From NCBI GenBank assembly GCA_030390025.1, contig CM059431.1, positions 114,640,001 through 114,704,000 of the forward strand: a stretch of DNA of 64,000 nt, in the 5' to 3' direction. Position numbers and translations under genes: made by a program. This DNA is from Squalus acanthias. Lineage: Eukaryota. Shown piece by piece: positions 601 to 63,204 of this stretch (position 1 is the stretch's first letter; each line of letters opens with the position of its first letter). The notes beneath the pieces were generated by a model. It was not told the origin of the DNA, made no database searches, and worked only from the letters and a program-made list of their open reading frames with translations.

Positions 601-1229
601 TTGTTAATATTTGAGTCACACAATTCTGTGAAGGGCATATATTATCAATAAAACTACAGCTTCTCAGCCACAGTGGACAAAGACTGTTTATGGGAAGTGT
701 TCTGAATCCATGGAGAGGTTCCATAAAATACACAAGGTTGTAACAGTACAGTAACTTTGTTAGAACAGTGAAGCAGATCAGAAAGTTACTAGTTCTAATG
801 CTTCAAATCTGCAGCAGTATTTCTGCGCCAAATACTAAGTATAGCAGGATTGTAATCATTTTCTGACCTCATGGAATCCTGTTTGGTTTGGTGACATGTG
901 TTTTTCTGATCTTATGCTTTATGAATTGTACTGCATCACGCCAGTTATACCCTGCAATAATCAGGCAACAAGGCAATAGCCAAGTACTTCAGTTAGCTTA
1001 AGGCAATGGTTCAAGAGTGTAAGCATAGAGTTAAGAACGTGTATTTTTTTAACTTATGAAATGGAAATTATAATATAATATAGGAATCTGTCAGGAATTA
1101 AAACTGGTCACTGCAATCCCTGTGATCAAATCTTCTTTACAGCTTTCAAACTGCTCACATAATTACCTCAGAAAATGTTGGAAACACTGAGCCATTCAGG
1201 CAGCATCTGTGGAGAGACAAACAGTTAAT

Positions 1230-2002
1230 GGCCCCGATCTTGACTGGGGCAGGTTTTCCGAGCTGGTGAGGGGTGGGGGGAGGAGTTGTGGTTGGAAACT
1301 CAGAAGTCCAGGTTTCCCCACATGTGGTGGAGTTTTGACTCCACAGTGTGCGTCTTTTTTTTCCAGCAGGTTCCCCACCCGGAAGCCTGTCTGACAGGAT
1401 TGGCTCCCTGTCAGGGCCAGGAACGCGCTGGAGCAGGCCGCAGCCCAGGAGCAGGTAGGGATCTTGCAGCTGAGTTAGTGGTAGCGTGGGGGGTCTGAAT
1501 CTTGGGGGGAGGGGCTCCGATCTTGGGTGGCTCCAATCCTGGGGGGTCTCCGATCTTGCTGGGGGTGGGTCTGATCCGGGGGGTCCAATCGAGGAGGGTG
1601 TGTTCAGCGATCCTGGAAGGGGGGTGGGGGTCGACATTCCTGGAGGGGGGATGTAGGTAAGCTTGCTTGGTGGGCCGGGGGGAAGCACTCCTGCTCCTCT
1701 TGGCCCACAAGCAGTACTGAAAAAGTACTTACCTCTTCCATGCAGCAGTCCTCACCTCCCTTTAGCTGCCGGGTTTCCTGAGGCCCAGGAAACCCGGCCG
1801 GCCAGGGTTAAACCTGGAAGACAAAGTCAGAGGCACGCAGCCTTATTATAATACTTAAATGACCAACCCACCTCCCGGGAGTGGGTTGGTTGCCCCCTCT
1901 CCCCCCATCAAGACTGGAAGTGGGTGGGTTCGAGGCGAGTTGGGTTCGGGTTTGAGTTTTTTTTAAATTTCACAGCCCACTCGAACCAAACCCACCTGTT
2001 TT

Positions 2003-2037
<35 letters not shown>

Positions 2038-2048
2038 AAATTCCCCTC
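1230..2048. mobile_element. Harbinger-type MITE (family A)
   Basis: Ends ggccccgatctt / aaaattcccctc, 3-bp TSD AAT (1227-1229, 2049-2051); right half similar to 29020-29318; G-rich degenerate internal repeats. Confidence 0.75.
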
Positions 2049-2067
2049 AATATTTCAGCTCCATGAA

Positions 2068-2100
2068 AGTTTTGATGAAAGGTCATCGACCTGAAACGTT
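2068..2100 (+). ncRNA. Degenerate minimal hammerhead ribozyme motif (C3 mutated, interrupted at cleavage site)
   Basis: agtt-TTGATGA-a-aggtc-atc-gacct-GAAA-cg-tt, with stem I partner aact displaced to 3887-3890. Confidence 0.5.
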
Positions 2101-3883
2101 GGCTGCGATTTCACCAGCCATGGCGAGTCCGGTGCAGCTGGAGCAGACATCGGCCTCAAAACCCACTCCGTCTTCATCCTGCCTCCTTAAGTGATTTTGC
2201 CCTGATTGGGCTTGTTAAGTCCGCCGTGCGAGGTTCCCAGCCAATTAAAAAGAAGCGGGTCTGACGACGTCATTTGATGACGCGTCATCAGCCGGTTTCC
2301 TTAAAGGGACCATGTTCACATGCATTTTGACATTTGTGCTGTCAGTGTTCTACAGCATTGAGATGCTGCAAACACTGACAAGCACTGCACAGAGGTGCAC
2401 GGCTGCACCCAGGATCTGCCATGACTCCCTCCATTTGTTTATGGAGGGAGTCACAGCACGCAGGGAGGTTCTCTTCCCTTCCCATGGGCGGAAGAGACCT
2501 CCCCAGGACACCAACTCAGCCTGGTTACACATTGCACAGGAGGGCACAAGCAGGGATGTCGTCAGGCGGACTAGGGTGCAGTGGTGCAAACCTTTCAATG
2601 ATCTCAGTAGATCACAAAACGTTACTGCAAAGCCACACTCAACCTCATGCTCCTGTGCCTCTCATTACATCCCCATCACTCTGCCTTCCCTATCCTACTC
2701 CTGCACATCCTTACTCACACCAACTTACCTTGCACCTCCACCCATCCCTCTCTATCTACATTATCACTTCCCCATCTCACTAGCCACCCCTCATACTCAC
2801 CCTCATCCTACTGCAATCATTCAAACTAACAACACACAAGGGTAGGCACTTGTGTGCTTTAGCCAATGTTCCTGTGAAGTTTCTGTTAATGTGTTGTCAA
2901 GCATTGAAATCCTTATTTTCACAACTTTGTCTTCTTGGACAGATTTGTGTGCAGCTTTGAAAGTGTGTTAGTGAGTTCCAGTGAATGGTGAGACATAACG
3001 TTCTCCACCCCCACCCCACCCCAATGGTGATGAGTGTGAAAGGAATGGCTTGGAGATTGCAGGGATGCTTTATGGTGCTGGTGTGGGGTGGTGCCAACCT
3101 GGCGCATCATGTGACAGCCAGGGTGTACAGTGTTAAGTGAAGTAAATCTGGACATGGTGAGGCCATCGCTGGCATCCCAGGCAGCAATGTGCACGGGTGA
3201 TGATGCCCTGTGTCCTGTGCAGCATCAGTTGATGGCGGAGAAGGTTAGTGTAGATGTTGTTGCTGTTGGTGTGCCCGGTGATGCTGGTGTTGGGGCTGAT
3301 CGTGTTGGGATTCTGAGGACTAAGGTGAGATATTTTATGGGGCACCAATGTTGATGGAATAGATAGCAGGTGAGGTTGAGATGACAGAAGCGATCTGTCA
3401 TTGGTGAGAGAGGTTGTTCCAAAGAGGTGACACTGGATAGAGAGTTTGCTCCAAACACTTGCAAGCTACATAAACCTCAATCTGTCTTCCAAATGCAGTA
3501 AGCAACAGCTTCTAACCTTGGAAAGTGAAGATCTATGAAATGGGAGCTTTCATAGAAAATTTGCAGCTGTCAGGTCAGTAAATCATTCCATGCTGACACA
3601 ACACCCGACCTCCTTACCTGACGTGATCCCCACACATCCGGGAAACTCGTGGAAAACCTGGTAAAATGGTAAGTACATGGTAAAATGGTGCTTAACTACC
3701 TTTAATAAGCTTTTAAGTATCTAAGTTGGCTGACCCGCCGCTTGGTGTCGGGTCTGTTCAGGGATGACAGACCCAACACTTGGGAAACTGACAAGGAGGC
3801 GGGTTTACAGCGGGACACCGGCCCGCTGTCAATCTTTGTGATTGACAGTGGACCCGCCTCCGAACGCCGGCAAAATTCTGGCC
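2101..3883 (+). mobile_element. Internally deleted Harbinger transposon with Myb/SANT remnant (+) and HARBI1 C-terminal remnant (-)
   Basis: TIR-like ends ggctgcgattt / aaattctggcc, TSD GTT/ATT; 2390-2615 encodes APRICHDSLHLFMEGVTARREVLFP...AWLHIAQE...VQWCKPFNDL (Myb_DNA-bind_5-like). Confidence 0.75.
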
Positions 3884-5082
3884 ATTAACTCTGTTTCGCT
3901 CCTCACAGATGCTGCCTGACCTGCTGAGGTGTTTGCAGAATTTTATATTTTGGTTTCAGATTTGCAGCATCTGCAGTATTTTAGTTTTGTCGTATATTGT
4001 CTCTTTCACTTGCCTTTCTTCTCTCTGGAATTCTGCCATTAACACTTATAAAGAAGAGCACAGCATTTTTTTAGACTTTCTTGTGAATGGATGTTAGTTA
4101 GTTGGGAAGTGAAATACATTCTAATTCCAGGGATCCATTGTCAACGTCAAACACTATTGGGTGAGGTAAAGCTCTGCTAGATGCAGGATAAAACTTTTTT
4201 TTTAATTCTCCTTCCTCAATGTAATTCAGCTCCTGTCTCAGAAGAGCATCCCTACTAATGATCCGGTGTGACACTTTTTTCCCCCTATTTCCCACATCAG
4301 CTTCTTTGAGTAAAATTTGGGGACAGTTTTTCGCTGTTGCTCCATGCCCACTAGGACCTAGATTGGGACAACCCAAACTAATTTCACATGGGAAACGTAC
4401 AGCCAACAGAGAGAGGAGACTAACTATATCTGAACCTGGGCCTAATTGGTGAAACACCAGTGTCTAATTCACTGTACTAGTATAGTTATTTCTATTGATT
4501 ACGGCTGTAATGCTGATCTTCACAAGTGTTCTCAACAATGGTCCATTTACTAAAGTAAAAACAGTAAGTAGATTAAAAGATGTCGGGGTATTGCAGCTTC
4601 CTAGTTTTTTTTTAAAAAGAGTCCATGATATGCATGACTGGGGAAGCAACACAACCCCAAAATTAACAACAGCTTCCATGACTAAGCCAAATGTCCTTGG
4701 AATCAGAGAATGGTCCTTCTTGGGAATCCTGATGGGTTGAACTTGGGTTTTGGAAAGTCCAATGCATCAGGGAAACCAAAAGTTTCATGCTGGAGTTAGT
4801 TTCAATTAAATCCTGTTAACCCAGAACTTCAGCTGAATTCCGAGGGAGAGACAGTAATGTTTTGCCAGACAGTCTACCCGAGCCTGAACAAAGCAATCTG
4901 AGCCGCAAACCTCACTACCACCAGCAGCAACATTGTGCCAGGATGGATCAACAGGAGATACGTTTGTGACAGGATTATATTGTTCGAACCAACGAGCATC
5001 CAATAAACTGGGACAACTCACTTTTAATAGTCTCGGGAAGATTTGAGTGGCGAGCAGCCCTGGAACTCAAACCTGAAATCAT

Positions 5083-11531: not shown

Positions 11532-12555
11532 TAATGCTTTACTTTTACGTTCCTTTTCAATTAAAAATTTTTGTGCATTTTTTGCTTACTAAGGTGAGAG
11601 ATGTCAGTGTTCGGTAATGGGACAGACATTCCACTTTTTGCACCCAGTGTTAACATCAAATCCTCCTAGGCCAGATGAACCAGAGATTAGAGGCAGAGCC
11701 AAACCTACATTGCCCCAACTATGCACCTTAATTCTATTTACAGAAACATACCCTCTACTGCTCCAGTGTGACGGCTCTGCCTCCAACACCAGCCATACTT
11801 TGTGACCTTTACGAGTAAGATTGTTAATCTAGTACAAGTTTGTGCCAAATTATGGGCACTTTTTGTGCAATATTTGTGCAATATTTATCCCTATGTGTGT
11901 GTCTCGTGCTCCCTGTAAGTGTGGCTGCTTTGCTGGGAACACAGGATTGCGGAATTCCCCAATTTCCAATCAGATAGCACAAAAAGTTTGAAGCGTTGAA
12001 GCAGTAAAGTTTTTGGTCTTCATTTAATTGGTTTTGTTTATTTTCCAAACTCTTGATGTGGTGATAAAATTTGCTTTGGATTGCTTTATTGCGCCACAAA
12101 AAATCATTGCGCTGTTTGAATGTGACATTGTCACAGTGAACATGACATGGATACTTCTGGCTTCTTCCCTTTCCCTAGCAACAAATGCAATGCATCTTTA
12201 AAAAGAAACACTGGCCTGATAAATTGTTCCCATGTAAGTAGACAGTTCCATGTGCTAATCAAGATCTGCTCCTTCAGCTCATAGCACTTAGCAACTCAGC
12301 GAATAAGAGGAGTAAACCTTGCACCAGATAAGTCAATGTTAACATTACTTGCAATTTAATTTGAGGGTGAGAGCAAAAAGCACTAAACTCAGACTCATAT
12401 GTGTTGAGAAATATGCATTATCCATAAAGCATTTCGTAAAGCATCAATGATAAACGTAATAGAGCCAACAATCCGCAGGCGGACACAGCCTGGCATCAAT
12501 GCCAGGATGTACCCGTTCAAGGCTTCCACCATTGACTGCTGACAAAGTTCACAGG

Positions 12556-12769
12556 CCATGATGCGGAGATGCCGGTGTTGGACTGGGGTGGACAAAAGTG
12601 AGAAGTCGCACAACACCAGGTTATAGTCCAACAGCTTTATTTGAAATCACGAGCTTTCGGAGCGGCTGCTCCTTCGTCAGGTCACCTGACGAAGGAGCGG
12701 CCGCTCCGAAAGCTTGTGATTTCAAATAAAGCTGTTGGACTATAACCTGGTGTTGTGCGACTTCTCACT
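12556..12769. mobile_element. Miniature inverted Penelope-terminus insertion with 12-bp TSD
   Basis: TSD aaagttcacagg at 12544-12555 and 12770-12781; 173-bp palindrome 12597-12769; arm also present at 60359-60443 next to a Penelope GIY-YIG fragment. Confidence 0.85.
12682..12719 (+). ncRNA. Minimal type I hammerhead ribozyme motif (PLE type)
   Basis: tcac-CTGACGA-a-ggagc(ggcc)gctcc-GAAA-gc-TT-gtga: intact core, stem I tcac/gtga, palindromic stem III; mirror copy on - strand 12647-12684. Confidence 0.7.
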
Positions 12770-13289
12770 AAAGTTCACAGGGTCAGAGAAAAGTCCCTTT
12801 ACTTACATGGCAATTGCAGTTGCCCACACGACAAGGAGCACATCTAGGTTGCACCCGCCAAAGAGGCTGGAACGAGAGAGCTGCAGAGAGATTGGCTTGG
12901 GAGGGGATGCCAGATTGTTAAACTGCCTCATTGGCATTCTTTAACTATTTTTTTGTTAGAAATTGTCAGTGCTTTTCTTCGGGGTCGAGGCCACGATCTC
13001 TGCCTGAACCCCCCTGGTGAGCCTCACTTGGGTCAGTTGCCAGCATGATATGCCTGGTCCCTGATGTAGGGATTCCCCACCCCAGCCCTGCACCCTCTTA
13101 CACCTTGTTTGGCCACCAACAGGCCATTTCAGAATCCCCAATGTAATTTTCTGTGAAAGTGCACCAGTGTTAAATTTCATGATTCGTGCAGCATTTCACT
13201 CAGATATTTATAATACTTTTTGCCCAAACTAAAATTGTTGGCCATTTAATCCCTCCCACAGAGTCTGCAGAGGAAAGCAAGGCAGTGCA

Positions 13290-27235: not shown

Positions 27236-29318
27236 GCCGGAATTTTATCTTGGAGGTGGGTAGGGAGCTGGGCTGGGGGGTTGGGGGGGTGGTGCTGCAA
27301 TGCGGTCGGGAAACCCCGGAGGACTGGTTGCTCTCAGACCCTGCCGAATTCAACGACAGGGCCTGATTAACATTTAGCTTCGCGGTTTCCTGCTGCCCCA
27401 GTGGCACCAGGTCTCAGAGGAGGGAGGGAGGGATCTGGCGGGGGGGGGTCGAAGGATGGAGATGGCGGAGGGCTCCAAGGATGGAGATGGCGGAGGGCTC
27501 CAAGGATGGAGATGGCGGAGGGCTCCAAGGATGGAGATGGCGGAGGGCTCCAAGGATGGAGATGGCGGAGGGCTCCAAGGATGGAGATGGCGGAGGGCTC
27601 CAAGGATGGAGATGGCGGAGGGCTCCAAGGATGGAGATGGCGGAGGGCTCCAAGGATGGAGATGGCGGAGGGCTCCAAGGATGGAGATGGCGGAGGGCTC
27701 CAAGGATGGAGATGGCGGAGGGCTCCAAGGATGGAGATGGCGGAGGGCTCCAAGGATGGAGATGGCGGAGGGCTCCAAGGATGGAGATGGCGGAGGGCTC
27801 CAAGGATGGAGATGGCGGAGGGCTCCAAGGATGGAGATGGCGGAGGGCTCCAAGGATGGAGATGGCGGAGGGCTCCAAGGATGGAGATGGCGGAGGGCTC
27901 CAAGGATGGAGATGGCGGAGGGCTCCAAGGATGGAGATGGCGGAGGGCTCCAAGGATGGAGATGGCGGAGGGCTCCAAGGATGGAGATGGCGGAGGGCTC
28001 CAAGGATGGAGATGGCGGAGGGCTCCAAGGATGGAGATGGCGGAGGGCTCCAAGGATGGAGATGGCGGAGGGCTCCAAGGATGGAGATGGCGGAGGGCTC
28101 CAAGGATGGAGATGGCGGAGGGCTCCAAGGATGGAGATGGCGGAGGGCTCCAAGGATGGAGATGGCGGAGGGCTCCAAGGATGGAGATGGCGGAGGGCTC
28201 CAAGGATGGAGATGGCGGAGGGCTCCAAGGATGGAGATGGCGGAGGGCTCCAAGGATGGAGATGGCGGAGGGCTCCAAGGATGGAGATGGCGGAGGGCTC
28301 CAAGGATGGAGATGGCGGAGGGCTCCAAGGATGGAGATGGCGGAGGGCTCCAAGGATGGAGATGGCGGAGGGCTCCAAGGATGGAGATGGCGGAGGGCTC
28401 CAAGGATGGAGATGGCGGAGGGCTCCAAGGATGGAGATGGCGGAGGGCTCCAAGGATGGAGATGGCGGAGGGCTCCAAGGATGGAGATGGCGGAGGGCTC
28501 CAAGGATGGAGATGGCGGAGGGCTCCAAGGATGGAGATGGCGGAGGGCTCCAAGGATGGAGATGGCGGAGGGCTCCAAGGATGGAGATGGCGGAGGGCTC
28601 CAAGGATGGAGATGGCGGAGGGCTCCAAGGATGGAGATGGCGGAGGGCTCCAAGGATGGAGATGGCGGAGGGCTCCAAGGATGGAGATGGCGGAGGGCTC
28701 CAAGGATGGAGATGGCGGAGGGCTCCAAGGATGGAGATGGCGGAGGGCTCCAAGGATGGAGATCGCGGAGGGCTCCAAGGATGGAGATTGTGGAGGGCTC
28801 GGAAGGCTGGAGGTTGGAGGTGGTGGTGGGGGCGCTAGAGAGAGGGTCGGGGGCCGAGTATCAAAGGCATGAGGGGGGATCAGCGATCGGAGGCCTCGTG
28901 GCGGGGGGTGGGGGGGGGTGGTTGGAGGCCTCGGTGGGGGAGATCAGAGGTGTCGGGGGTGTCCGATCATGGGGGGGTTGGGCAAGGCAGGAACGCTGGA
29001 TCCAACAGGTAAGTGTAAAGGCACTTACCTCCTGGATCCAGCAGTCCTCGCCTTCCTTTAGCTGAAGGGTTCCCCGAGGCCAGGGAAACCCGCCCGCCCA
29101 CAGTTAAATTTAAAATTGTGATTCAAAATGAGGCATGCAGCCTCATTATAATATTTAAAGTGCCAACCCGCCTCCAGGGAGCGGGTTGGCTGCCCGCCCC
29201 CATGGCCCACCTCCATTAAAACCGGAAGTGGGCAGGTTGGGGTCGGGATTCAGATTTTTAAAATTTTAACCTCCCACCCGATCCCAACCCGCCCATTTTT
29301 TGGAGTTGAAATACCCCC
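27236..29318. mobile_element. Harbinger-type MITE (family A) containing an expanded minisatellite
   Basis: Ends gccggaatttt / gaaataccccc; TSD TAT (27233-27235, 29319-29321); similar to 1230-2048. Confidence 0.75.
27452..28801. repeat. 25-bp minisatellite (AAGGATGGAGATGGCGGAGGGCTCC)x54
   Basis: 1350 bp / 25; 52 identical units followed by two variant units (gatcg, gattgt). Confidence 0.97.
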
Positions 29319-29719
29319 TATAACTTTTTTGGTCTATCTAGTAATTTCAACCGTGCAACCTTCTGATGAGGACAATGCCTCCCCCTCCATATGATCAAGC
29401 ACCTCCTTAATTGCATTATGTACCATGTAGAGAGGTCCATTTTGTAAAGCAGTGCAACTTGCTATAAGATTGTCTCATTCTATTCCTTTTGTACTTCTGT
29501 AACTTTGGCAAAGTCATTTGGGAAGACAAGAATTATCCCAAAGCTGTACAACATGTTGAAGTACCAGTGCATGGCAGAATCATCTCAAGATGCTATTGCT
29601 CACTTCTTAACAGCAGGGTCAGAATAGTATTAGCAGACGTTACCAAGCAATTTTCTCCACCTGCCTTTCTGAATGTCCTAGGAGATGAAAAAAAAACATT
29701 AAGAAGGGTAAAAGAAAAA

Positions 29720-30055
29720 AACTAGGAAATTATAAGCCGATTAGTCTGAGGCCAGTTGTGGGGAAGTTAGTAGAATCTGTTATTAGGGACATGGTGACTG
29801 AGCATTTGGGCAAATATGAGCTGATCAGAGAGAGCCAGCATGGATTTGTAAAGGGTAAGTCATGTCTAACGAACCTAGTTAAATTTTTTGAGGAGCTAAC
29901 TAACATGATAGATAAGGGAGTGCCTGCAAATGTTATTTATATGGACTTGCAGAAGGAATTCGAAAAGGTTCCACATAAGAGACTGTTAACAAACATGAGA
30001 GCACGTGGAATTAGAGTCAACCTGTTGGCTTGGATAGGGAATTGGCTAGGAGGTT
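29720..30055 (+). mobile_element. CR1-like LINE RT fragment
   Basis: GNYKPISL, LIRESQHGFVKGKSCLTNL, YMDLQKEFEKVPHKRLL. Confidence 0.85.
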
Positions 30056-30674
30056 GGACACTTCTGGCCAGGAATAGTGGTGGCACCATATGCAGCCTAG
30101 ATATAGGGTAGTGTGAGTCAACTCCCATAGAGTCGAAGTAAGGCACTCCGACCCGTACTGGAGCGACTAATGCTACTGAACTGTAGAAGATATGTAGGTC
30201 AGAACTTTACTCTCAAAACCTGCCTTCTCAAAGCCTTTCTTTTTTTTTTAAAAGAGCTGACTGATATTGAACATGGGTTTTTCTCTCCATTTTGTTAATT
30301 CTGACCCCAGGAGGCAGAATCTCATTAGACAACGCTGGAGCTACCCTTCCTGAGCTCAAATGAATTGAGCCATCTCAACCAGAATAGGTGTGAATAATCA
30401 CTTAATATCCAAGCTGACTTTCATTGTCTGAAGCACGCTGGTTTAGATACCCCATCTGAATTCTAACCTACACCTCCCAACCCTGCTGTCTTGTGAATTT
30501 AAACCCTTTAGAGCTAACTTTACCTCAATAGTGACATTAACAGATACTTTACCAAGTTTCCTCCATGGTGGCCTATGCAAAAATCCTGAAATCACGACAG
30601 GAACCTCAGTGAACTCAAGGCTCAACATGTTCAAACAAAGCCAATAGAATGTTGACCTACATAACCAAATCAGT

Positions 30675-33430: not shown

Positions 33431-35601
33431 GGTGAGAACAGTGGGAAGGGGGGAAGAAAGTGATCCAGGTTTAAAGGGGGGGTGGGGGGGAGTGGTGGAA
33501 TGAGAGCAAGAACATGATCCAGTTGGGAAGATGGATCACATTCTCCTGCCCGTTGTTAGGCCAAGATCACATTCTTCCACCCCCCACCCCCTTTACACCT
33601 GCACCACGTTCTCCCTCTCCTCTCCTCCCCCACCCCCCACAACCCCCCCAAGCTCCCATACAGCATTGCACTTCGAGCTCCTTCCAGCCTCTTCCTCCAT
33701 TGGGGTCATCTGCAAGCTCTGTTTAAACAAAAGGATATTAAACTAAATCAAAATTCTTAGTGTTTCATTTATAAAGAAGAGTAGAATTGGCAACTGTCAC
33801 TTTCTAAGATACTGGGCAGGGTTGTACAACTCAATTATAGTGAGGTGCATTAAGCTGCTGCGTAAAATGATGCAGGGCTTCATAGAGTATCAGGTTGATA
33901 ATGTAAAATCATGAGATCTCACAGAACATTAGATATCTTTGGACAGTCAATTATATATTAATATAGCTCAATGTAATACAAATAGAAATAAAAGCGTTTG
34001 ATTATTTGAAGAAAAGATATAAGTTGCTAAACTATGTTAACTCCTTCTGAACAAAGATTACACAATAAACGTGTTGTTTGCAAGTCTATTGGGAGAATCA
34101 TTTTATAAGAATGATTTGAAGATTAACCTTGGACCGGCCAACCTGCATAATTGTGCACTGCATTCCCCAATTAACCACAAACTATAGACATATCTATAAA
34201 TTTTAGGCACCAACTTACGATTTAGATTTATTAAGGAAGTTAGCAAATAGGACAGGTAACTTGCTGCGCTGTCTATTTTATTTAATCACAGTGTGTGACA
34301 GAAAAGACCAATACAAGGTTCCATTTCTGTGCTCCCCTTACGCTACAGAGCTCTGTGCTTTGTGTGCAGAGCAGCCTGTAATTGGATAATTAGAAAAAGT
34401 GATTAATTACTGTGGATTTACTGGGCTGAGAAATGATAAATGTCTTTGAATTTGCTGCAGCAGAACAAAGGACAACAGAAACTGTGTGCACTTTTCAAGC
34501 TGATTTTGTGGTTGCAACTGATCAGTCATTATTGGTGTTTCTTTCCAGGAATCAAGTTCCACGGTGAGGCTGCTGCCACTTCACTCGGATATGCTCAGGG
34601 AGAAAAAAAGGGGGTGCCTGCCAATTGTTTATCATTAGGTATGCAAAGAAGAGGATACTTTTCAAGTATTGTTAAATGCGAAGAATAGAATGAATTCATC
34701 AGAGACAATGGGAGTCAGCTTCAACAGCAATGAGAGAAACAATCATCGGACATGTCACAGCGCTGTGCTAAAACACCTACTTACAAGTCAGTCACTGCTG
34801 ATTGTAAACCTGATTTAAGCAATCTAGAAATTCCCCCTGGTAACACTCACTCTTTTCCTTTATCTGAACGTGTGCACACAGTTAGGGGTGAAAGGATAAG
34901 CATTAGCAGTGAAACTGTATCCTCATTGCAGATTCTAATGTAAATGATTAAAAACAAATGGTCAGCCAAACCACATGTTTTTTGTTGGCCACGTTGTGCC
35001 TACTTTCCTTCAGACGGAGTTGTCATTTAAAATTCTCGCACAGCTTGCCACTGATGGCGAGTGGATAACACCTGTAGTTGGCAGCACGTGAGGCTTGGCT
35101 AAATGATTAACAGCAGATCTTCTTCCCTGTTCGCTCACTCTTTGGGGGCTATTTTGGGGAAAGGGTGAAAACAGGTGCTGTGCTAATGAGACACGCCCGT
35201 TTAAAAGTCAGGTTTTCGCCCGCTATTTTGGGGCTAACTGCTGATTACCAAGATTGTCAGGAACTGGAACGCTCCAACTGAAAAGGGAGTTGGAAGGTTG
35301 GGAGGTGAGGATGAGGAAATTACAGGGTTACGGACAAAAAGCGGGAATGTGGGACAAAGCACAACTGCTCTTTCAAGGAGCCAGCACAGGCACCATGGGC
35401 CGAATGGCCTCCTTCTGTGCTGTAAGTTTCTATGATTCTATTTAAATGTGTCTGGAGGCACCAAAACAGAGCCCTGCATGTTTAGCACTCTAGCGTTGAT
35501 TTGGAGCAATTTTCCTGGAGCGTTATAGGTAGCCTCCGTGCACGCACTTCCGCTGAACGTGTGGGGTGCGCTGGCTGACAGACAACGGCGCACATATGAG
35601 G

Positions 35602-35841
35602 ATGGCTCAGGGACCGAGGGAGAGGTCTCTCAGCTTCTCAGAGGTGGCACTGGAAGTCCTGGTCGAGATGGTTCAGCGGAGGAGGGACGTCCTGTACCCG
35701 CAGGGGGGAAGGAGGCCACAGAGGCAACTAATGCGGCGGATGTGGGCAGAGAGCGCTGAGGAGGTCACAGCCAGGAGCACTGCCCCCAGGACATGGCTCC
35801 AGTGCTGCAAAAAATGTAATTATTTGACACGTGCGGTCAAG
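35602..35841 (+). pseudogene. Harbinger Myb/SANT-like gene exon 1
   Basis: MAQGPRERSLSFSEVALEVLVEMVQRRRDVLYP...WAESAEEV...RTWLQCCKK; donor aag|gtaaga; next exon at 36040 (ttccag|DKIAHNR). Confidence 0.8.
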
Positions 35842-36440
35842 GTAAGATCCCATCTCACAAATACACTTCTCAATAACTGCACCACCACCAGCACCACATC
35901 TAACTATACACTAACATTCACACATCCCACACTATTGCATCCTACACAGACACGACTCACACCTCAGACACATCTCACAGCTCTTCAACCAAGTGAGGCA
36001 TAACACGCACGCGCACACGCACACCTCTTTCTCTTCCAGGACAAGATAGCACATAACAGGAGTCAGCAGGACCTGACCAGGGGGAGGGGAAGCACAACAC
36101 CATGAGATCACTCTCTTTGAGGAGGCAGTGCTGGCGGAAATCGGGAGGGGAGTAGCAGACCACAGACCGAGCTGGGCTATGTGGCCACTCCAGTTTCCTT
36201 ACATATCCACAACGATTCCTGATCCCTAATCTCCCAAACCTATCCTCACTCCCAAGCTCCATATGGTCCCATCACACACATCCTCCTGTAGTGGCCACAC
36301 GTGCTGCACCCTAAACCTTTCAGCCTTATCATTGCAGGCTCCCAGGAGCAATGGAAGAGGATGAAGAGCCACCTCGTCCCCCTCGGAGGAGGAGGAGGAG
36401 GGGGGAGTAGGGTAGGGAGGAAGAAGGCACTGCGTCAATC

Positions 36441-39400
36441 TACAGAACAGGTGGTGGGTGGAAAGAGTTCAGGAGATCCAGCAACTAGCCGACAACCATG
36501 ACGTGCGCGGATTCTTTAGCGCAGTCAAGACCATCTGCGACCCAAGCACCTATCCCGCTGAGAGCTAAGAACGATGAAGTTCTCATCAAGGACAGAGAGG
36601 CAGTCAGTGCCTGCTGGAAGGAGCACTTCAAAGACCTCCTCAACCAAGACTCAATCTTCGACATGAGTGTCCTTGATTCCATCCTACCGCATGCTATCCG
36701 CCACTATCTCAGCACAATCCCAGCCCTGCATGAGGTTGAAAAGGCCATCCGACAGTTGAAAATCAACAAGGTTTCCGGAGCATATGAAATCCCCGCCGAA
36801 GTACTAAAGATGGCAGTGAAGTAATCTTGGCACAAATCTATGACCTTATCTCCCTTATCTGGAAGGAGGAGAGCATGCCAGGAGATTTCAGAGACACTGT
36901 AATCGTGACCATCTTCAAGAAAGGAGACAAGTCTGATTGCGGTAATTACAGAGGAGTTTCCCTGTTGTCTGCCACAGGGAAAGTAATTGCAAGAATCCTC
37001 CTCACTTGTCTCCTCCCAGTGGCTGAAGAGCTTCTCCCAAAATCACAATGCGGATTCCGCCCACTAAGAGGCACAATGGACATGATTTTCACTATGCAAC
37101 AAATCCAAGAAAAATGTATGGAGCAGCACCAACCTCTGTACATGGCCTTTTTTGACCTCACAAAGGCCTTCAACTCTGTCAACCGAGAGGGATTATGGAG
37201 TGTCCTTCTCACATTTGGCTGTCCTCAAAAATACATTACCATCCTCCGTCTGCTCCACGATGACATGCAAGCCGTGATCCTTACTAACGGATCCATCACA
37301 GACCCAATACAAGTGAAGACCAGGGTCAAGCAAGGCTGTGTCATTGCACCAACGCTCTTCTCAAACTTTCTCGCTGCAATACTTCATCTCACCTTGTGGA
37401 AGTGCAGTTTTTGTCTCGGACAAAATGGCTTCCTTGAATTTAGACTCCATAAAATGGCCGACTCTGACTTGTGTGGAAAAGGGAAAAATCCATTGTTATG
37501 TTCTTTTCTGAAAATAACTTTAAAGTTCTAGACTATGCTGTCAGCAAAAGTCTGCCTGCACAAAAGAAAACAGGCTTAAATCGAGATAACCAAGGGCTAG
37601 TAAAGTAAACAAACAGGGCCTTGGCCTTGGGAAGAAAAAGAACAGACAGATAGACTCCATTTTATAGGGATTAGTTAGTCTCACTGTAAGGCATTTCTAA
37701 TGTGTTTTTTCTAATTGTTAATTTAGCTTACCTTAAAAGGAATACTGGAATTGAGATAACCAATGGATTCTCTTCTTTCTTTTGTTAAACAAACTTTTTT
37801 TGTTGTTCTTCTCAGTTTTTACACACCAGCTTAATTTAAATTGTAATTCAAATTAGGTTTTTTTTCTGGCACAATGCTTTCCCTGCAAAGTCTGATATAA
37901 AATTCCTGTCTATCCCTGACAGTAAAGGCGAATTTCCTTGTGATTCCTCTGCCAATGGTATGGACCAGAACCCGTTCTGTATCCAAGACTGTAAATATTT
38001 CAAAATCTGGTTTCAGACCATTAAATATCTTATTCAATATATATATATATATATATATATAGTGCCTGAGTTCATTTTGTTATTACAACATTATCCCAAA
38101 ATCCAAACAGCAGTACTGTTGAACTGACAGGTTTTGTCAATGTTCAATTTCATTTCTATCAATTTATCTTATCAATTCCAATTTCAGAAACAAATCATAA
38201 TTTTCCTTCTGTCACTGTGGGGACATATTAACTTAAAATTAAGAAACTTATATTTAATAATGTCCAATATCTTTAAATTTCATACTAAAGTTGTTGCTCG
38301 ATGAACTTAATCAGCTGTCAGTGGAAAGGGTTAACTCCTTTGCAGGTTTTTTAAGAAGGTGGAGCGAAACATTATCAGGCGCACGCAATTGCGTCACTTT
38401 ACGTAAATTTTAAAAAAAACTTTCCCGATCCAAAAAAGCAGTTGTGTTTTCACACTTTAACTAAACACGAACAGAACAGATAAAACAAAACAAAATAGCA
38501 CATGCTTGCAGAACTAGTAAATTACATCATTTTCTTATTGTCCTTTCTTCAGATGTCTTTCCAAAATACTATAACTATAAATTAGTTTTTCACATTTAAG
38601 CAAATCAAATCAAATTGCTTTGGAAGATTTTACCATAGCAACCGCGACTCCTAGGTTAAATCTTAGACCGAAACTTAATCTTTTATTAAAGTGTGAAAAC
38701 ACAACTGCTTTTTTGGATCGGGAGTGGAGCTAATCTACAGGACGAACGGGAAATTGTTCAATCTCCATCGCCTTCAGTCCAGAACCAAGATTGTTCCAAC
38801 CTCTGTTATTGAATTACAGTATGCAGACGACGCTTGGGCTTGTGCACACTCGGAAGCCAAACTCCAAACCATCGTTGACTCCTTCACTGAAGCGTACGAG
38901 AGACTGGGCCTTACTTCGGCCGCCTGAGGAAAAGAGTGTTTGAAGACCAAGACCTCAAACCCAGCACCAAGCTCATGGTCTACAGAGCAGCAGTGATACC
39001 CACCCTCCTGTATGCTTCAGAGACATGGACCATGTACACCAGGCACCTCAAAGCACTGGAGAAGTATCACCAACGCTGCCTCCGCAAAATCCTGCAAATC
39101 CATTGGCAGGATAGGCCTTCCAATGTCAGTGTTCTCTCTCAGGCCAACATCCCTAGCACTGAGGCATTGATCACACTCAATCAGCTCCGATGGATGGGCC
39201 ATATTGTCCGCATGCCTGATACAAGACTCCCGAAACAAGCATTCTAGTCCGAGCTCCGTCACGGCAAGCGACTTCCAGGAGGGCAGAGAAAACACTTCAA
39301 GGACGTCCTCAAAGTCTCCTTGAAAAAATGTAACATCCTCATCGACTCTTGGGAATCCCTAGCCCAAGACCGCTCAAATTGGAGGAGAAGCATTCAAGAA

Positions 39401-60235: not shown

Positions 60236-60358
60236 TATAGAATGAAAGTCCTATCAGGCTGCTGGCTGTAGGAGCACCCATCAACTCTCCCGCATTAGAA
60301 ATCGTGATCCGTCATTTTGATGTATCCTATTTTGATTCATGATCTTGTTAAATAAAAA

Positions 60359-60860
60359 TGAGAAGTCGCACAACACCAGGTTATAGTCCAACAGATTTAT
60401 TTAATTTTACAAGCTTTCGGAGCTGTCGCTCCTTCCTCAGGTAAGTTAGCAGTGAGAGAATCTCCCAGAATTCACAATTTAAACACAGACAAAATCTATT
60501 CAAATATTTCCCTACATCAAAGACACACTAAGAGCACAGCCAAGACAATGAGCTGTGTCCCAGGGGGTCCAACGTGTCAAACCACCTGCTGGCTGCATAT
60601 CCTGTCAATTTGTGTTGGTTCTTGTGTTAGTCTTTTTTTAAAAAAAACACCTGGGAAGACCGGCCATGATGTCAAGTCATGTTCTGTATCGTGACATGAA
60701 CCCGATATCGCGATTGAGGCCATCCTCATGAGTGCGGAACTTGGCTATCAGTTTCTGCTCTATGATTTTGCGCTGTCGTGTATCCCGAAGGCCGCCCTGG
60801 AGAACGCTTACCCGCAGATCCGAGGCTGAATGCCCCTGGCGGCCTTCGGGATACACGACA
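60359..60860 (-). mobile_element. Penelope-like element 3' fragment (GIY-YIG C-terminus, 3' UTR, hammerhead-like terminus)
   Basis: HSASDLRVSVLQGGLRDTRQRKIIEQKLIAKFRTHEDGLNRD; terminus CTGAGGA-a-ggagc..gctcc-GAAA-gctt on - strand at ~60408-60445. Confidence 0.8.
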
Positions 60861-61289
60861 TCATCTATGTTCTGCACTGATATTGGTTTCCTATTTTTGA
60901 GGTATTCAATACTTTTCTGTGATGTCGTCATGACATTCATAAAATGACTAAATAACGAATCCATCAATTCTCAAAGTGATCTGTGGGTGCACCCTTACCG
61001 GTAGAACTGAATTGAACTAAACATGAATTTCTGGCGATTCTTTGGGACATTACAAACACATTCTGAATTCTTCAGATCACCCCCTGTAAAGTGACTCCCA
61101 TCATAAGGTTACAGTAAAATCCTACAAATCACAACCTTTCAAATAGAGTTCTTAAAAAGATGCATGGAGCAGTGACTTATACATTGAATTTTACAGCAGC
61201 ATTCAGTGATGTGACCAGAATCAGAATGTCATTTCACTTTTTATTGTTCAGTAATGGAATAAGTTTCCTCAGTCTGCATACATAAAACG

Positions 61290-62560: not shown

Positions 62561-62709
62561 CTTAGCTATCACTGCTAGTTTCATGCTAGTCTCTCCCATT
62601 TACATTCTGCTTTGCTCCAGTCTGCCTTATTAAGCTTTTGTTTTTCTAATGCCTTTTCACAGCCTGACTGAGAAGACCGTTGTACATCATCCAAGTAAAA
62701 AGCAATCTG

Positions 62710-62812
62710 AACCAAAAACGGAAAATGCTGCAAACACACAGCAGGTCAGTCAGCATCTGTGGAGAGAACAGACAAGCTGATGTTTCAGGCACAGAGCCTT
62801 CCTCAGAACTGG
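62710..62812 (-). mobile_element. Penelope terminal repeat fragment
   Basis: cagcaggtcagtcagcatctgtggagagaacag...tgtttcagg...ccttcctcagaac, same family as 1170-1229. Confidence 0.6.
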
Positions 62813-63204
62813 AACATAAGAATTGACAAGCATATTAATACAATCAGAAAAAAGGAAATGTGGGTGGGGGAGGAATATATCAAAAAAAAGAAAAACCCAG
62901 AAAGCAAGCATGAGTGGAATGATCAACTCAGTTATGTAATGGATAGAAATATTAACACATTAAAGAAAAAAAGGATGTGTAAATAGATAAGGCCTAGATT
63001 ATGGGACATGTTTTCTGTTTCTTTATGTGTACTATTTAATTTGAAGACATTGTGTACATCTCAAGACAATAAATGGTTTCCTTGATTTATCCTGGAGAGG
63101 TGAGCTTCTCTGTCATATTATTGACATGGGGTAGTTTGGAGTGGTTTTCATTGTGGCAGAAGGTAAGGAACAACAGAAATATCAAAGTTGCTTGCAGCAC
63201 TAAC

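What the first reader, a model, noticed from the sequence alone, without database searches (positions are those of the whole stretch)
12544..12781. 214-bp fold-back insertion made of two back-to-back hammerhead ribozyme motifs, with its own 12-bp TSD
Seen: a palindrome of 86-bp arms with a 1-nt spacer (12597-12769; only 2 mismatches, both G:U-compatible), flanked by the TSD aaagttcacagg. The fold-back point lies immediately 5' of a hammerhead core (CUGACGA..GAAA..UH), so each strand carries one ribozyme motif pointing outwards. Known: Penelope-like elements carry minimal hammerheads with palindromic stem III that are proposed to act as dimers, and they often insert with an inverted terminal copy. 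Inference: this is either an extreme 5'-truncated/inverted Penelope insertion or a non-autonomous ribozyme-delimited mini-element. A second, unrelated Penelope family at 1170-3985 shows the same architecture, folding back near its ribozyme. Any read-through transcript would form an ~86-bp dsRNA hairpin that sequesters the ribozyme and could be a Dicer/ADAR substrate.
Basis: partly seen in the sequence, partly recalled or inferred. Interest (0 to 1): 0.7.

Follow-up and report, generated by a model that had tools for sequence, protein, structure and literature searches.

The report
Back-to-back Penelope retroelement ends in shark
This 214-base hairpin is a real, recent insertion made of two short ends of a very common Penelope-like jumping gene joined back to back, each carrying a predicted hammerhead ribozyme; this layout is already described, and the insertion is likely a dead-end by-product, not a new self-spreading element.

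Summary
In detail: 214 bp, 86-bp arms with 2 mismatches, and a 12-bp target duplication. A related species has the empty site with one copy of the 12-mer. A second copy in the window and a shark gene model tie the family to an RT plus GIY-YIG ORF with a Neptune-type linker. An inverted 5'-truncated copy with a tail and a TSD is the published signature of Penelope-like insertions, and this scan has noted such fold-backs before in this genome and in others. Only the right ribozyme has a full stem I. The two lie on opposite strands, so they cannot pair up within one transcript, and the hairpin is predicted to bury both. Inversion junctions occur at many places along the arms (88 joints, 15 shown). 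Junctions just 5' of stem I do recur, one form in two species. Best reading: two separately primed cDNAs joined head to head. [quoted passage not shown] Cleavage and transcription are untested. Interest 0.25.

The parts
12544..12555 (.). Left copy of the 12-bp target-site duplication
   Evidence: a single copy at the empty site of organism C (X7 record 26)
12556..12596 (-). 41-nt Penelope 'tail', on the left copy only; ends in ATGG on the element's sense strand, possibly the ORF start (inferred)
   Evidence: family loose ends cluster at 12551-12558 and at 12594, 12765, 12774 (table 7, 24 of 455 rows shown)
12556..12682 (-). Left copy, 127 nt: 3' part of the pseudo-LTR plus tail, 5' end two bases before the core
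12647..12682 (-). Left minimal hammerhead motif: core from 12680, predicted cut between 12651 and 12650, stem I cut down to 2 bp by the junction
12682..12683 (.). Head-to-head junction; T12682 is shared by both copies and C12683 belongs to the right copy
   Evidence: native upstream letters from loose ends at 12682 (table 7)
12682..12769 (+). Right copy, 88 nt, without tail; ends within a base or two of where the copy at 60354-60442 ends
12682..12719 (+). Right minimal hammerhead motif: stem I 12682-85/12716-19, core 12686-92, bulged A12693, stem II 12694-98/12703-07, GAAA 12708-11, palindromic AGCU, predicted cut between 12715 and 12716
   Evidence: stem I covaries in the copy at 60354-60444 (TCAC/GTGA to TTAC/GTAA)
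12770..12781 (.). Right copy of the 12-bp target-site duplication
60354..60860 (-). Related longer copy (other subfamily): hammerhead and tailless end at about 60360-60444, about 240 nt of putative 3' UTR, C-terminus of a PLE endonuclease at 60686-60838, and a 23-bp inverted piece at 60838-60860. Not part of the insertion; used to identify the family
   Evidence: (88-90% identity over 84-89 nt)

Best explanation
This is one TSD-bounded insertion of two short, head-to-head 3' ends of an abundant Penelope-like retroelement, each with a predicted minimal hammerhead, likely made when the element's enzyme primed two cDNAs at its two start sites and their ends were joined, leaving a likely dead-end copy. 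Shown: the boundaries, the empty site, the tail on one copy only, the ribozyme anatomy, and the family's link to an RT plus GIY-YIG ORF. Inferred steps: (1) the endonuclease makes a 12-nt staggered cut; (2) each DNA end primes reverse transcription, one at the outer start site (left copy, 127 nt with tail) and one 41 nt further in (right copy, 88 nt), as the two internal start sites of the anole element PAc would give; (3) both cDNAs stop 2-4 nt upstream of the ribozyme core and join through 1 nt of microhomology; (4) repair fills in the TSD, and two CpG-type changes follow later. The ribozymes are passengers from the pseudo-LTR. In a read-through RNA from either side the antisense arm is made first and is predicted to bury the ribozyme.
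For: Empty site and TSD. Both outer ends coincide with recurrent family ends about 40 nt apart (table 7), which is the tail of PMC11167929 (the tail is the stretch between two RT start sites; PAc extends both target strands and is predicted to be a dimer). ORF link: the frame at 60686-60838 is 94% identical over 51 aa to P0003, a shark protein with Pfam RVT_1 (E 5e-9), DKG, YIDD, a C-x5-C-x2-C linker and a VYLI..YIG motif. Independently, shark gene model P0015 holds the endonuclease (85% to P0003 over 109 aa) and about 80 residues further on a translation of the ribozyme arm and tail (tblastn E 2e-9 to 2e-5). For two primings: the junction carries a native base of the tailless copy (C12683) with no template in the tailed copy. 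Also, in 3 of the 15 joints shown (12590>12718, 12593>12744, 12602>12711) the tail-bearing side is shorter than the opposite arm, which copying back on oneself cannot give. Junction ends in the 15 joints shown scatter from sense +11 to +91. Stem I and stem II pairs have probability 0.000 in the + strand transcript, against at least 0.997 for the four arm pairs sampled.
Against: Fold-backs within a few bases of this junction recur. Five contigs with 8-11 substitutions span the centre (X1 records 2, 4, 5, 6; X5 record 22; 5 of 32 pieces shown, of 32,679). One junction form has depth 4220 in X1 and 2200 in X5, 10 and 7 times the best other joint shown (420, 302), and 482 of 1494 in organism C (table 4). 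Random truncation does not explain this, and 1 nt of microhomology does not either. The three asymmetric joints could be one copy nested in the tail of another. Only 15 of 88 joints were visible, and contig depth is not a copy number. The ORF fragment at 60687-60866 is flanked by an 8-bp direct repeat (chance about 0.003), so it may be a separate insert, and only about 30 of the roughly 240 nt between it and the ribozyme were shown to be native (X12 loose end at 12684). Pfam GIY-YIG was not hit by P0003 and fell just under cut-off in P0006 (21.7 against 22.6 bits). No tree was built, so 'Neptune' rests on a motif.
Confidence: 0.72

Rival explanations
1. Same identity (Penelope by-product), different mechanism: one cDNA, or an antisense template, folds back and primes on itself, and the endonuclease trims the copy at the tail boundary.
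For: PMC3846280 (Discussion) reads head-to-head repeats with junction palindromes as self-priming; PMC8557442 (passage) ascribes the tail to endonuclease resolution. The arms are nearly symmetric. The related copy shows a 23-bp perfect inverted repeat around a 41-nt loop at its 5' end (60774-60796/60838-60860), which looks like snap-back.
Against: C12683 would have to be an untemplated base that happens to match the native letter. Three of the 15 joints shown have a tailed side too short to be the template.
Confidence: 0.15
2. A non-autonomous, ribozyme-delimited palindromic mini-element that is copied as a unit by the Penelope enzyme.
For: One junction form near stem I is far commoner than the others shown and occurs in organisms A and C (table 4). 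PMC3846280 (passage) reports that pLTRs alone suffice for mobilisation in trans.
Against: This copy does not have that junction. At least four junction forms lie at this place, and 88 joints were found elsewhere in the arms. The common form is 1.2% (X1) and 0.7% (X5) of the depth laid there. The boundary is 5' of the core, not at the cleavage site (+30/+31). PAc needs ORF sequence 3' of the start sites (PMC11167929), which this unit lacks if the tail ends at the ORF start. An 85-bp hairpin is predicted to hide both start sites' upstream template.
Confidence: 0.08
3. A hairpin RNA source (Dicer or ADAR substrate) kept for a host function.
For: An 85-bp stem is predicted. Penelope families give small RNAs in a rotifer (PMC3846280 passages).
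Against: The insertion is young (absent in a relative whose flanks differ at 42 of 1180 letters) and is one of many similar inversions. Both mismatches fit CpG decay.
Confidence: 0.03
4. Assembly artefact (chimeric fold-back read).
For: No contig in the four runs spans the centre of this copy.
Against: Both outward-pointing junctions are in independent short-read contigs, the TSD matches the empty site exactly, the arms differ at 2 sites, and other loci have like junctions.
Confidence: 0.02

Closest known systems
Insertion units of canonical endonuclease-positive Penelope-like elements (PMC3846280, PMC8557442, PMC8969392; passages read)
   Same: Inverted 5'-truncated copy joined head to head, tail on one end only, short TSD, palindrome at the junction
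   Different: Reduced to 127 + 88 nt with no ORF; TSD 12 bp against 8-10 bp in the rotifer examples; tail 41 nt against the quoted 30-40
Minimal hammerheads in pLTRs of metazoan PLEs (Cervera and De la Pena 2014, PMC4209133; parts 1-2 of 4 read)
   Same: 4-bp helix I, bulged base between 9 and 10.1, G10.1-C11.1, palindromic 15.2-16.2; that paper also reports pairs of motifs about 100-700 bp apart on opposite strands in Schistosoma
   Different: Here the two cores start 6 bp apart, and one has lost half of stem I; helix II is 5 bp
PAc, Poseidon element of Anolis carolinensis (Frangieh et al. 2024, PMC11167929; parts 1-2 of 4 read)
   Same: Two recurrent 3' ends that define a tail; hammerhead upstream of them
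   Different: In PAc the ORF starts at stem II and the start sites lie inside the ORF; here no open frame runs from the ribozyme through the tail and the partner has a Neptune-type linker. The parts read do not treat inverted copies
Non-LTR retrozymes (bioRxiv 10.64898/2026.07.22.740005; part 1 of 5 and passages read)
   Same: Short, non-coding, hammerhead-bearing, related to PLE pLTRs; reported in one chondrichthyan
   Different: Retrozymes are head-to-tail tandem repeats with same-strand ribozymes; this is a single head-to-head pair
L1 twin-priming inversions (recalled; seen only as search listings)
   Same: Two primings from the two target ends, joined by microhomology, bounded by a TSD
   Different: In L1 the two pieces copy different parts of one RNA; here they copy the same part and start at two fixed sites

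Membership tests
Endonuclease-positive Penelope-like element (insertion of) | Family has an ORF with PLE-type RT and C-terminal GIY-YIG endonuclease | tested here: met
   Indirect; the insert has no ORF. Linked through the window copy (94% to P0003) and gene model P0015. The GIY-YIG profile hit is just below cut-off.
Endonuclease-positive Penelope-like element (insertion of) | Optional 30-40-bp tail on one end | tested here: met
   41 nt, left copy only; both end positions recur in the family
Endonuclease-positive Penelope-like element (insertion of) | Adjacent inverted 5'-truncated copy and short TSD | tested here: met
   (empty site)
Endonuclease-positive Penelope-like element (insertion of) | Full-length pLTR-ORF-pLTR copy of this family in the genome | not testable with these tools
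   No genome is held for this window
Neptune clade | Cys linker (CX2-5CxxC) between RT and endonuclease | tested here: met
   P0003 residues 505-513; motif as given in PMC8557442 passages, which say that Nematis shares such a linker
Neptune clade | Placement in an RT tree | not tested
   No tree built
Minimal hammerhead of PLEs | Core CUGANGA..GAAA..UH with bulge after position 9, G10.1-C11.1, palindromic helix III | tested here: met
   Both arms
Minimal hammerhead of PLEs | Helix I of 4-5 bp | tested here: inconclusive
   Met on the right arm, with covariation in the copy at 60444; not met on the left arm (2 bp)
Minimal hammerhead of PLEs | Self-cleavage as dimer or with protein help | not testable with these tools
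   Folding only: for the right arm the active-type dimer is -21.7 against -43.1 kcal/mol for an inactive duplex through its palindromic stem II
Non-LTR retrozyme | Head-to-tail tandem units, each with a same-strand type I hammerhead | tested here: not met
   Single head-to-head pair
MITE / fold-back DNA transposon | Inverted repeats at both termini | tested here: not met
   The left 41 nt have no partner; the ends are those of a retroelement family
microRNA precursor (Rfam MIR5062) | Score at the gathering threshold | tested here: not met
   55.6 against 140 bits; the match is driven by the hairpin

The most novel reading that the evidence does not exclude
The recurrent junction just 5' of stem I marks the 5' end of the element's RNA. 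Because Penelope-type RT starts inside the RNA at the pseudo-LTR/ORF boundary, the start sites near the 5' end of every mRNA would give short run-off cDNAs from tail to transcription start. This insertion would then be two nearly complete run-off cDNAs, one from each start site, made by an enzyme dimer, not a random truncation. Shark genomes would hold a very large natural record that maps the start site and tests twin priming, an open step in PLE transposition. For it: the commonest junction form extends one arm to the A of an initiator-like TCACTTC in the native upstream letters (tables 4 and 7; the initiator consensus is recalled), and it recurs in two species. Against it: no transcription start was mapped, table 6 lists no place where many molecules end, and amplification of one old locus would look the same.
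Probability: 0.2. Interest if true: 0.55.

Novelty: new member of a known kind. Interest (0 to 1): 0.25.

Why it matters
As a single locus it matters little: it is a clean, empty-site-verified example of a described insertion pattern. Its value is as a sample of a large population. How Penelope-like elements make inverted copies and tails is unsettled (self-priming with endonuclease trimming, or two primings at two start sites), and what their hammerheads do is unknown. Short TSD-bounded fold-backs like this one keep both start sites and both stop points, so a genome-wide table could decide between the models and show whether cDNAs stop at the RNA's 5' end, at the ribozyme cut, or at random.

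Tried and rejected
No genome is held, so no genome-wide table of junctions and TSDs was possible. Rfam scan of the window: no hammerhead family at E<=1; the motifs were found with my own descriptor. Exact-pattern scans found 0 matches in metagenome contigs, viral contigs and prokaryote genomes. A 30-aa frame through the tail against 1.84 billion representatives gave 1 hit, P0001, rejected as a sum of 25 weak repeats of at most 4.6 bits each. Expression: no RNA holder was listed. Run X12 (RNA by guess) has family contigs but no cover in the flanks, 6 of 30 bins; contigs cannot show absence, so this is not used as evidence. Host gene: 149 of the 169 listed stop-to-stop frames of 75 aa or more (the Gypsy element and the 75-bp array were left out beforehand) gave Pfam hits in 4: two RVT_1, one Myb/SANT, one weak C2H2; short exons would be missed. 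Pile-up at the ribozyme cut: 3 of the 30 ends in the 15 joints shown lie at +32 or +33 and none at +31, against about 1 expected; not significant. No TSD was found for the copy at 60354-60860 as a whole or for the second family. My first two attempts to score the ribozyme dimer used an invalid structure string; one search corrects them. Supplementary Fig. S2 of PMC11167929 gave only panel labels; it shows genomic ends of PAc and may bear on the 5'-end question. Supplements of the bioRxiv paper were not seen. Seven paper searches listed no description of this shark family, of ORF-free head-to-head PLE palindromes as a class, or of twin priming in PLEs; Repbase, Dfam and most subscription papers are not in the library.

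Full report
1. Observation. The insert is 12556-12769 (214 bp) between exact 12-mers at 12544-12555 and 12770-12781. The arms 12597-12682 and 12684-12769 differ at two places. The + strand folds into an 85-bp stem, -177.7 kcal/mol, z -26.8, with 0 of 200 shuffles as stable. Contigs of four public runs were laid on 12000-13400 (4 of the 22 runs listed). A contig of organism C, whose flanks differ at 42 of 1180 letters, passes from 12543 directly into 12770. That is the empty site with one copy of the 12-mer, and it fixes both boundaries. Run X1 holds both junctions but may be the source sample. Run X5, another sample and study of organism A of which about 55% was read, holds the right junction and has no cover over the left one. 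No contig spans the whole insert, so the exact centre rests on the assembly, but both ends point outwards as assembled.

2. Anatomy. Read on the ribozyme strand, the insert is two copies of one sequence joined at their 5' ends. The right copy is 88 nt (12682-12769, +). The left copy is 127 nt (12682-12556, -), the same sequence plus 41 nt. They share T12682; the apparent spacer C12683 is part of the right copy's stem I. My descriptor found 5 hammerhead motifs in the window (2072+, 12686+, 12680-, 60440-, 62806-) and one motif in 1 of 30 shuffled windows; Rfam finds none. The right motif has a 4-bp stem I, the core, a bulged A, a 5-bp stem II opening with G-C, GAAA, palindromic AGCU and UU. These are the features given for minimal PLE hammerheads in PMC4209133 (parts 1-2 of 4 read). 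The left motif keeps two stem I pairs. The copy at 60354-60444 (88-90% identical) changes stem I on both sides (TCAC/GTGA to TTAC/GTAA), which supports the fold at family level. Both arm mismatches are CpG/TpG transitions; they are G:U only in a + strand RNA.

3. Family. The summed contig depth over the arms and tail is millions, against 8-26 in the flanks (table 2). That is no copy number, but the family is clearly very abundant, in organism C too. Loose ends cluster at 12551-12558 and at 12594, 12765 and 12774 (24 of 455 rows shown), and the window's second copy ends where the right copy does. So the family has two preferred 3' ends about 40 nt apart. About 240 nt upstream of the second copy's ribozyme, on the same strand, a frame (60686-60838) is 94% identical over 51 aa to P0003. 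That search returned 13 proteins of 23 candidates, 10 of them named from sharks. P0003 has Pfam RVT_1, DKG, YIDD, a C-x5-C-x2-C linker and a GIY-YIG-like motif; relatives P0006 and P0007 hit Pfam GIY-YIG below cut-off (2 of 8 proteins). One caveat: an 8-bp direct repeat flanks that ORF fragment, so it could be a separate insert. The link does not depend on it. Shark gene model P0015 begins with the same endonuclease (85% to P0003 over 109 aa) and at residues 189-231 matches translations of the ribozyme arm and the tail. The family is thus a canonical RT-then-GIY-YIG PLE, Neptune-like by the linker motif; no tree was made. The host is shark-like on the strength of these named hits only.

4. Are fold-back points fixed? 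Mostly not. One search found 88 joints and showed 15. Because the reference is itself a palindrome, these skips are head-to-head junctions of other loci (or nested copies); their ends scatter from +11 to +91 relative to the core, with 0-5 nt of microhomology. But the 5' edge of stem I is special. Five contigs with 8-11 substitutions cross the centre with 1-6 gap letters (5 of 32 pieces shown, of 32,679). Table 4 (12 of 17 rows shown) lists four insertions at 12680-12681. Two of them, GTGAA and TGACT, are by my reading one junction seen on opposite strands. It has depth 4220 of 366,081 in X1, 2200 of 312,845 in X5, and 482 of 1494 in X7; the best other joints shown reach 420 (X1) and 302 (X5). 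Loose ends before 12682 (50, 41 and 22 contigs; median 18, 11 and 9 letters) show that other copies run on upstream. So there is a hot spot or an amplified old junction, within a majority of other outcomes, and this copy is not of the commonest form.

5. Mechanism. PMC11167929 (parts 1-2 of 4) shows that the anole PLE protein nicks and extends both target strands, is predicted to be a dimer, and starts reverse transcription at two internal sites whose spacing is the genomic tail. Its hammerhead cleaves only with protein and is not needed for insertion in vitro. Applied here (inference): one target end primed at the outer site and the other at the inner site, both cDNAs stopped just 5' of the core, and they were joined through one base. 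Two observations favour this over snap-back copying: C12683 is native to the tailless copy and has no template in the tailed one, and 3 of the 15 joints shown have a tailed side shorter than the other arm. The alternative, self-priming with endonuclease trimming (PMC3846280 Discussion; PMC8557442 passage), stays open, and the 23-bp fold-back at 60774-60860 looks like it. The ribozymes are probably silent here. They lie on opposite strands, so they cannot form the dimer within one RNA. In either read-through direction the antisense arm comes first. In the + strand RNA stem I and II pairs have probability 0.000. Even alone, the right motif's palindromic stem II prefers an inactive duplex, -43.1 against -21.7 kcal/mol. 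These are predictions; nothing was assayed, and transcription of the locus is not shown.

6. Comparison with what is known. An inverted 5'-truncated copy beside the main copy, a 30-40-bp tail on one end, a short TSD and a palindrome at the junction are described as typical of PLE insertions (PMC3846280, PMC8557442, PMC8969392; passages). Opposite-strand pairs of minimal hammerheads 100-700 bp apart are mentioned in PMC4209133. It is not a retrozyme (no head-to-tail units; bioRxiv 2026), a MITE or a microRNA. Seven paper searches found no account of this family or of twin priming in PLEs, within a library that lacks Repbase and most subscription papers. Earlier notes of this scan report the same kind of fold-back in this and other genomes; I read them after forming my view, and they are not counted as evidence.

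7. Second family (1170-3985). An inverted arm (1170-1229, 2046-2064) and a forward copy (core 2072, resuming at 3884) exist, with a relative at 62690-62820. The 2072 core has T at position 3. Inserts of about 0.8 and 1.8 kb split the arms at or beside the cleavage triplet and its mirror. No TSD and no ORF link were found. The family resembles the first only at the core.

8. Verdict. A real, young, cleanly bounded Penelope-like insertion of a described architecture: new member of a known kind, interest 0.25. The lead worth following is the recurrent junction at stem I, which may mark the RNA's 5' end (probability 0.2, interest 0.55 if true; PMC2377424 passages, show an internal promoter and start site in the fly element's pseudo-LTR region).

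Noticed in passing
window 60354-60860: Second copy of the family (other subfamily): tailless end, hammerhead with covarying stem I, putative 3' UTR, PLE endonuclease C-terminus and a 23-bp perfect fold-back around a 41-nt loop; an 8-bp direct repeat (60679-60686, 60867-60874) flanks the ORF piece and is unexplained.
   Followed up: partly
window 1170-3990 and 62690-62820: Second hammerhead-bearing repeat family; the fold-back copy is split by two nested inserts (about 1230-2045 and 2100-3885) that land at or beside the cleavage triplet and at its mirror in the inverted arm. The second insert has weak terminal inverted repeats.
   Followed up: partly
window 12677-12683 and 60437-60446 (+ strand): The antisense strand at the 5' edge of the ribozyme core reads like a splice donor, perfectly so in the second copy (CAG/GTAAGT; consensus recalled). 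It may only mirror the conserved ACCUGA. In the fly element an intron ends at helix I (PMC4209133).
   Followed up: no
protein hits: Several shark gene models named as host genes (XRCC5, FAM210B, FAM204A, septin 5a isoforms, a Pyrin-domain protein) contain pieces of this PLE endonuclease: exonisation or annotation chimeras.
   Followed up: no
window 20311-23616: Gypsy-type LTR retrotransposon frames (gag, protease, RT, RNase H, integrase read by eye), broken by frameshifts; direct repeats at 19279-19362/23786-23869 and 20255-20376/23902-24023.
   Followed up: no
window 27427-28812: Nearly perfect tandem array with a 75-bp period, open in several frames on both strands.
   Followed up: no
window 29689-30108, 36788-37528, 35557-36000: Two LINE-like RT fragments (Pfam RVT_1) and a Myb/SANT domain frame that may belong to a Harbinger-type transposon.
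   Followed up: no
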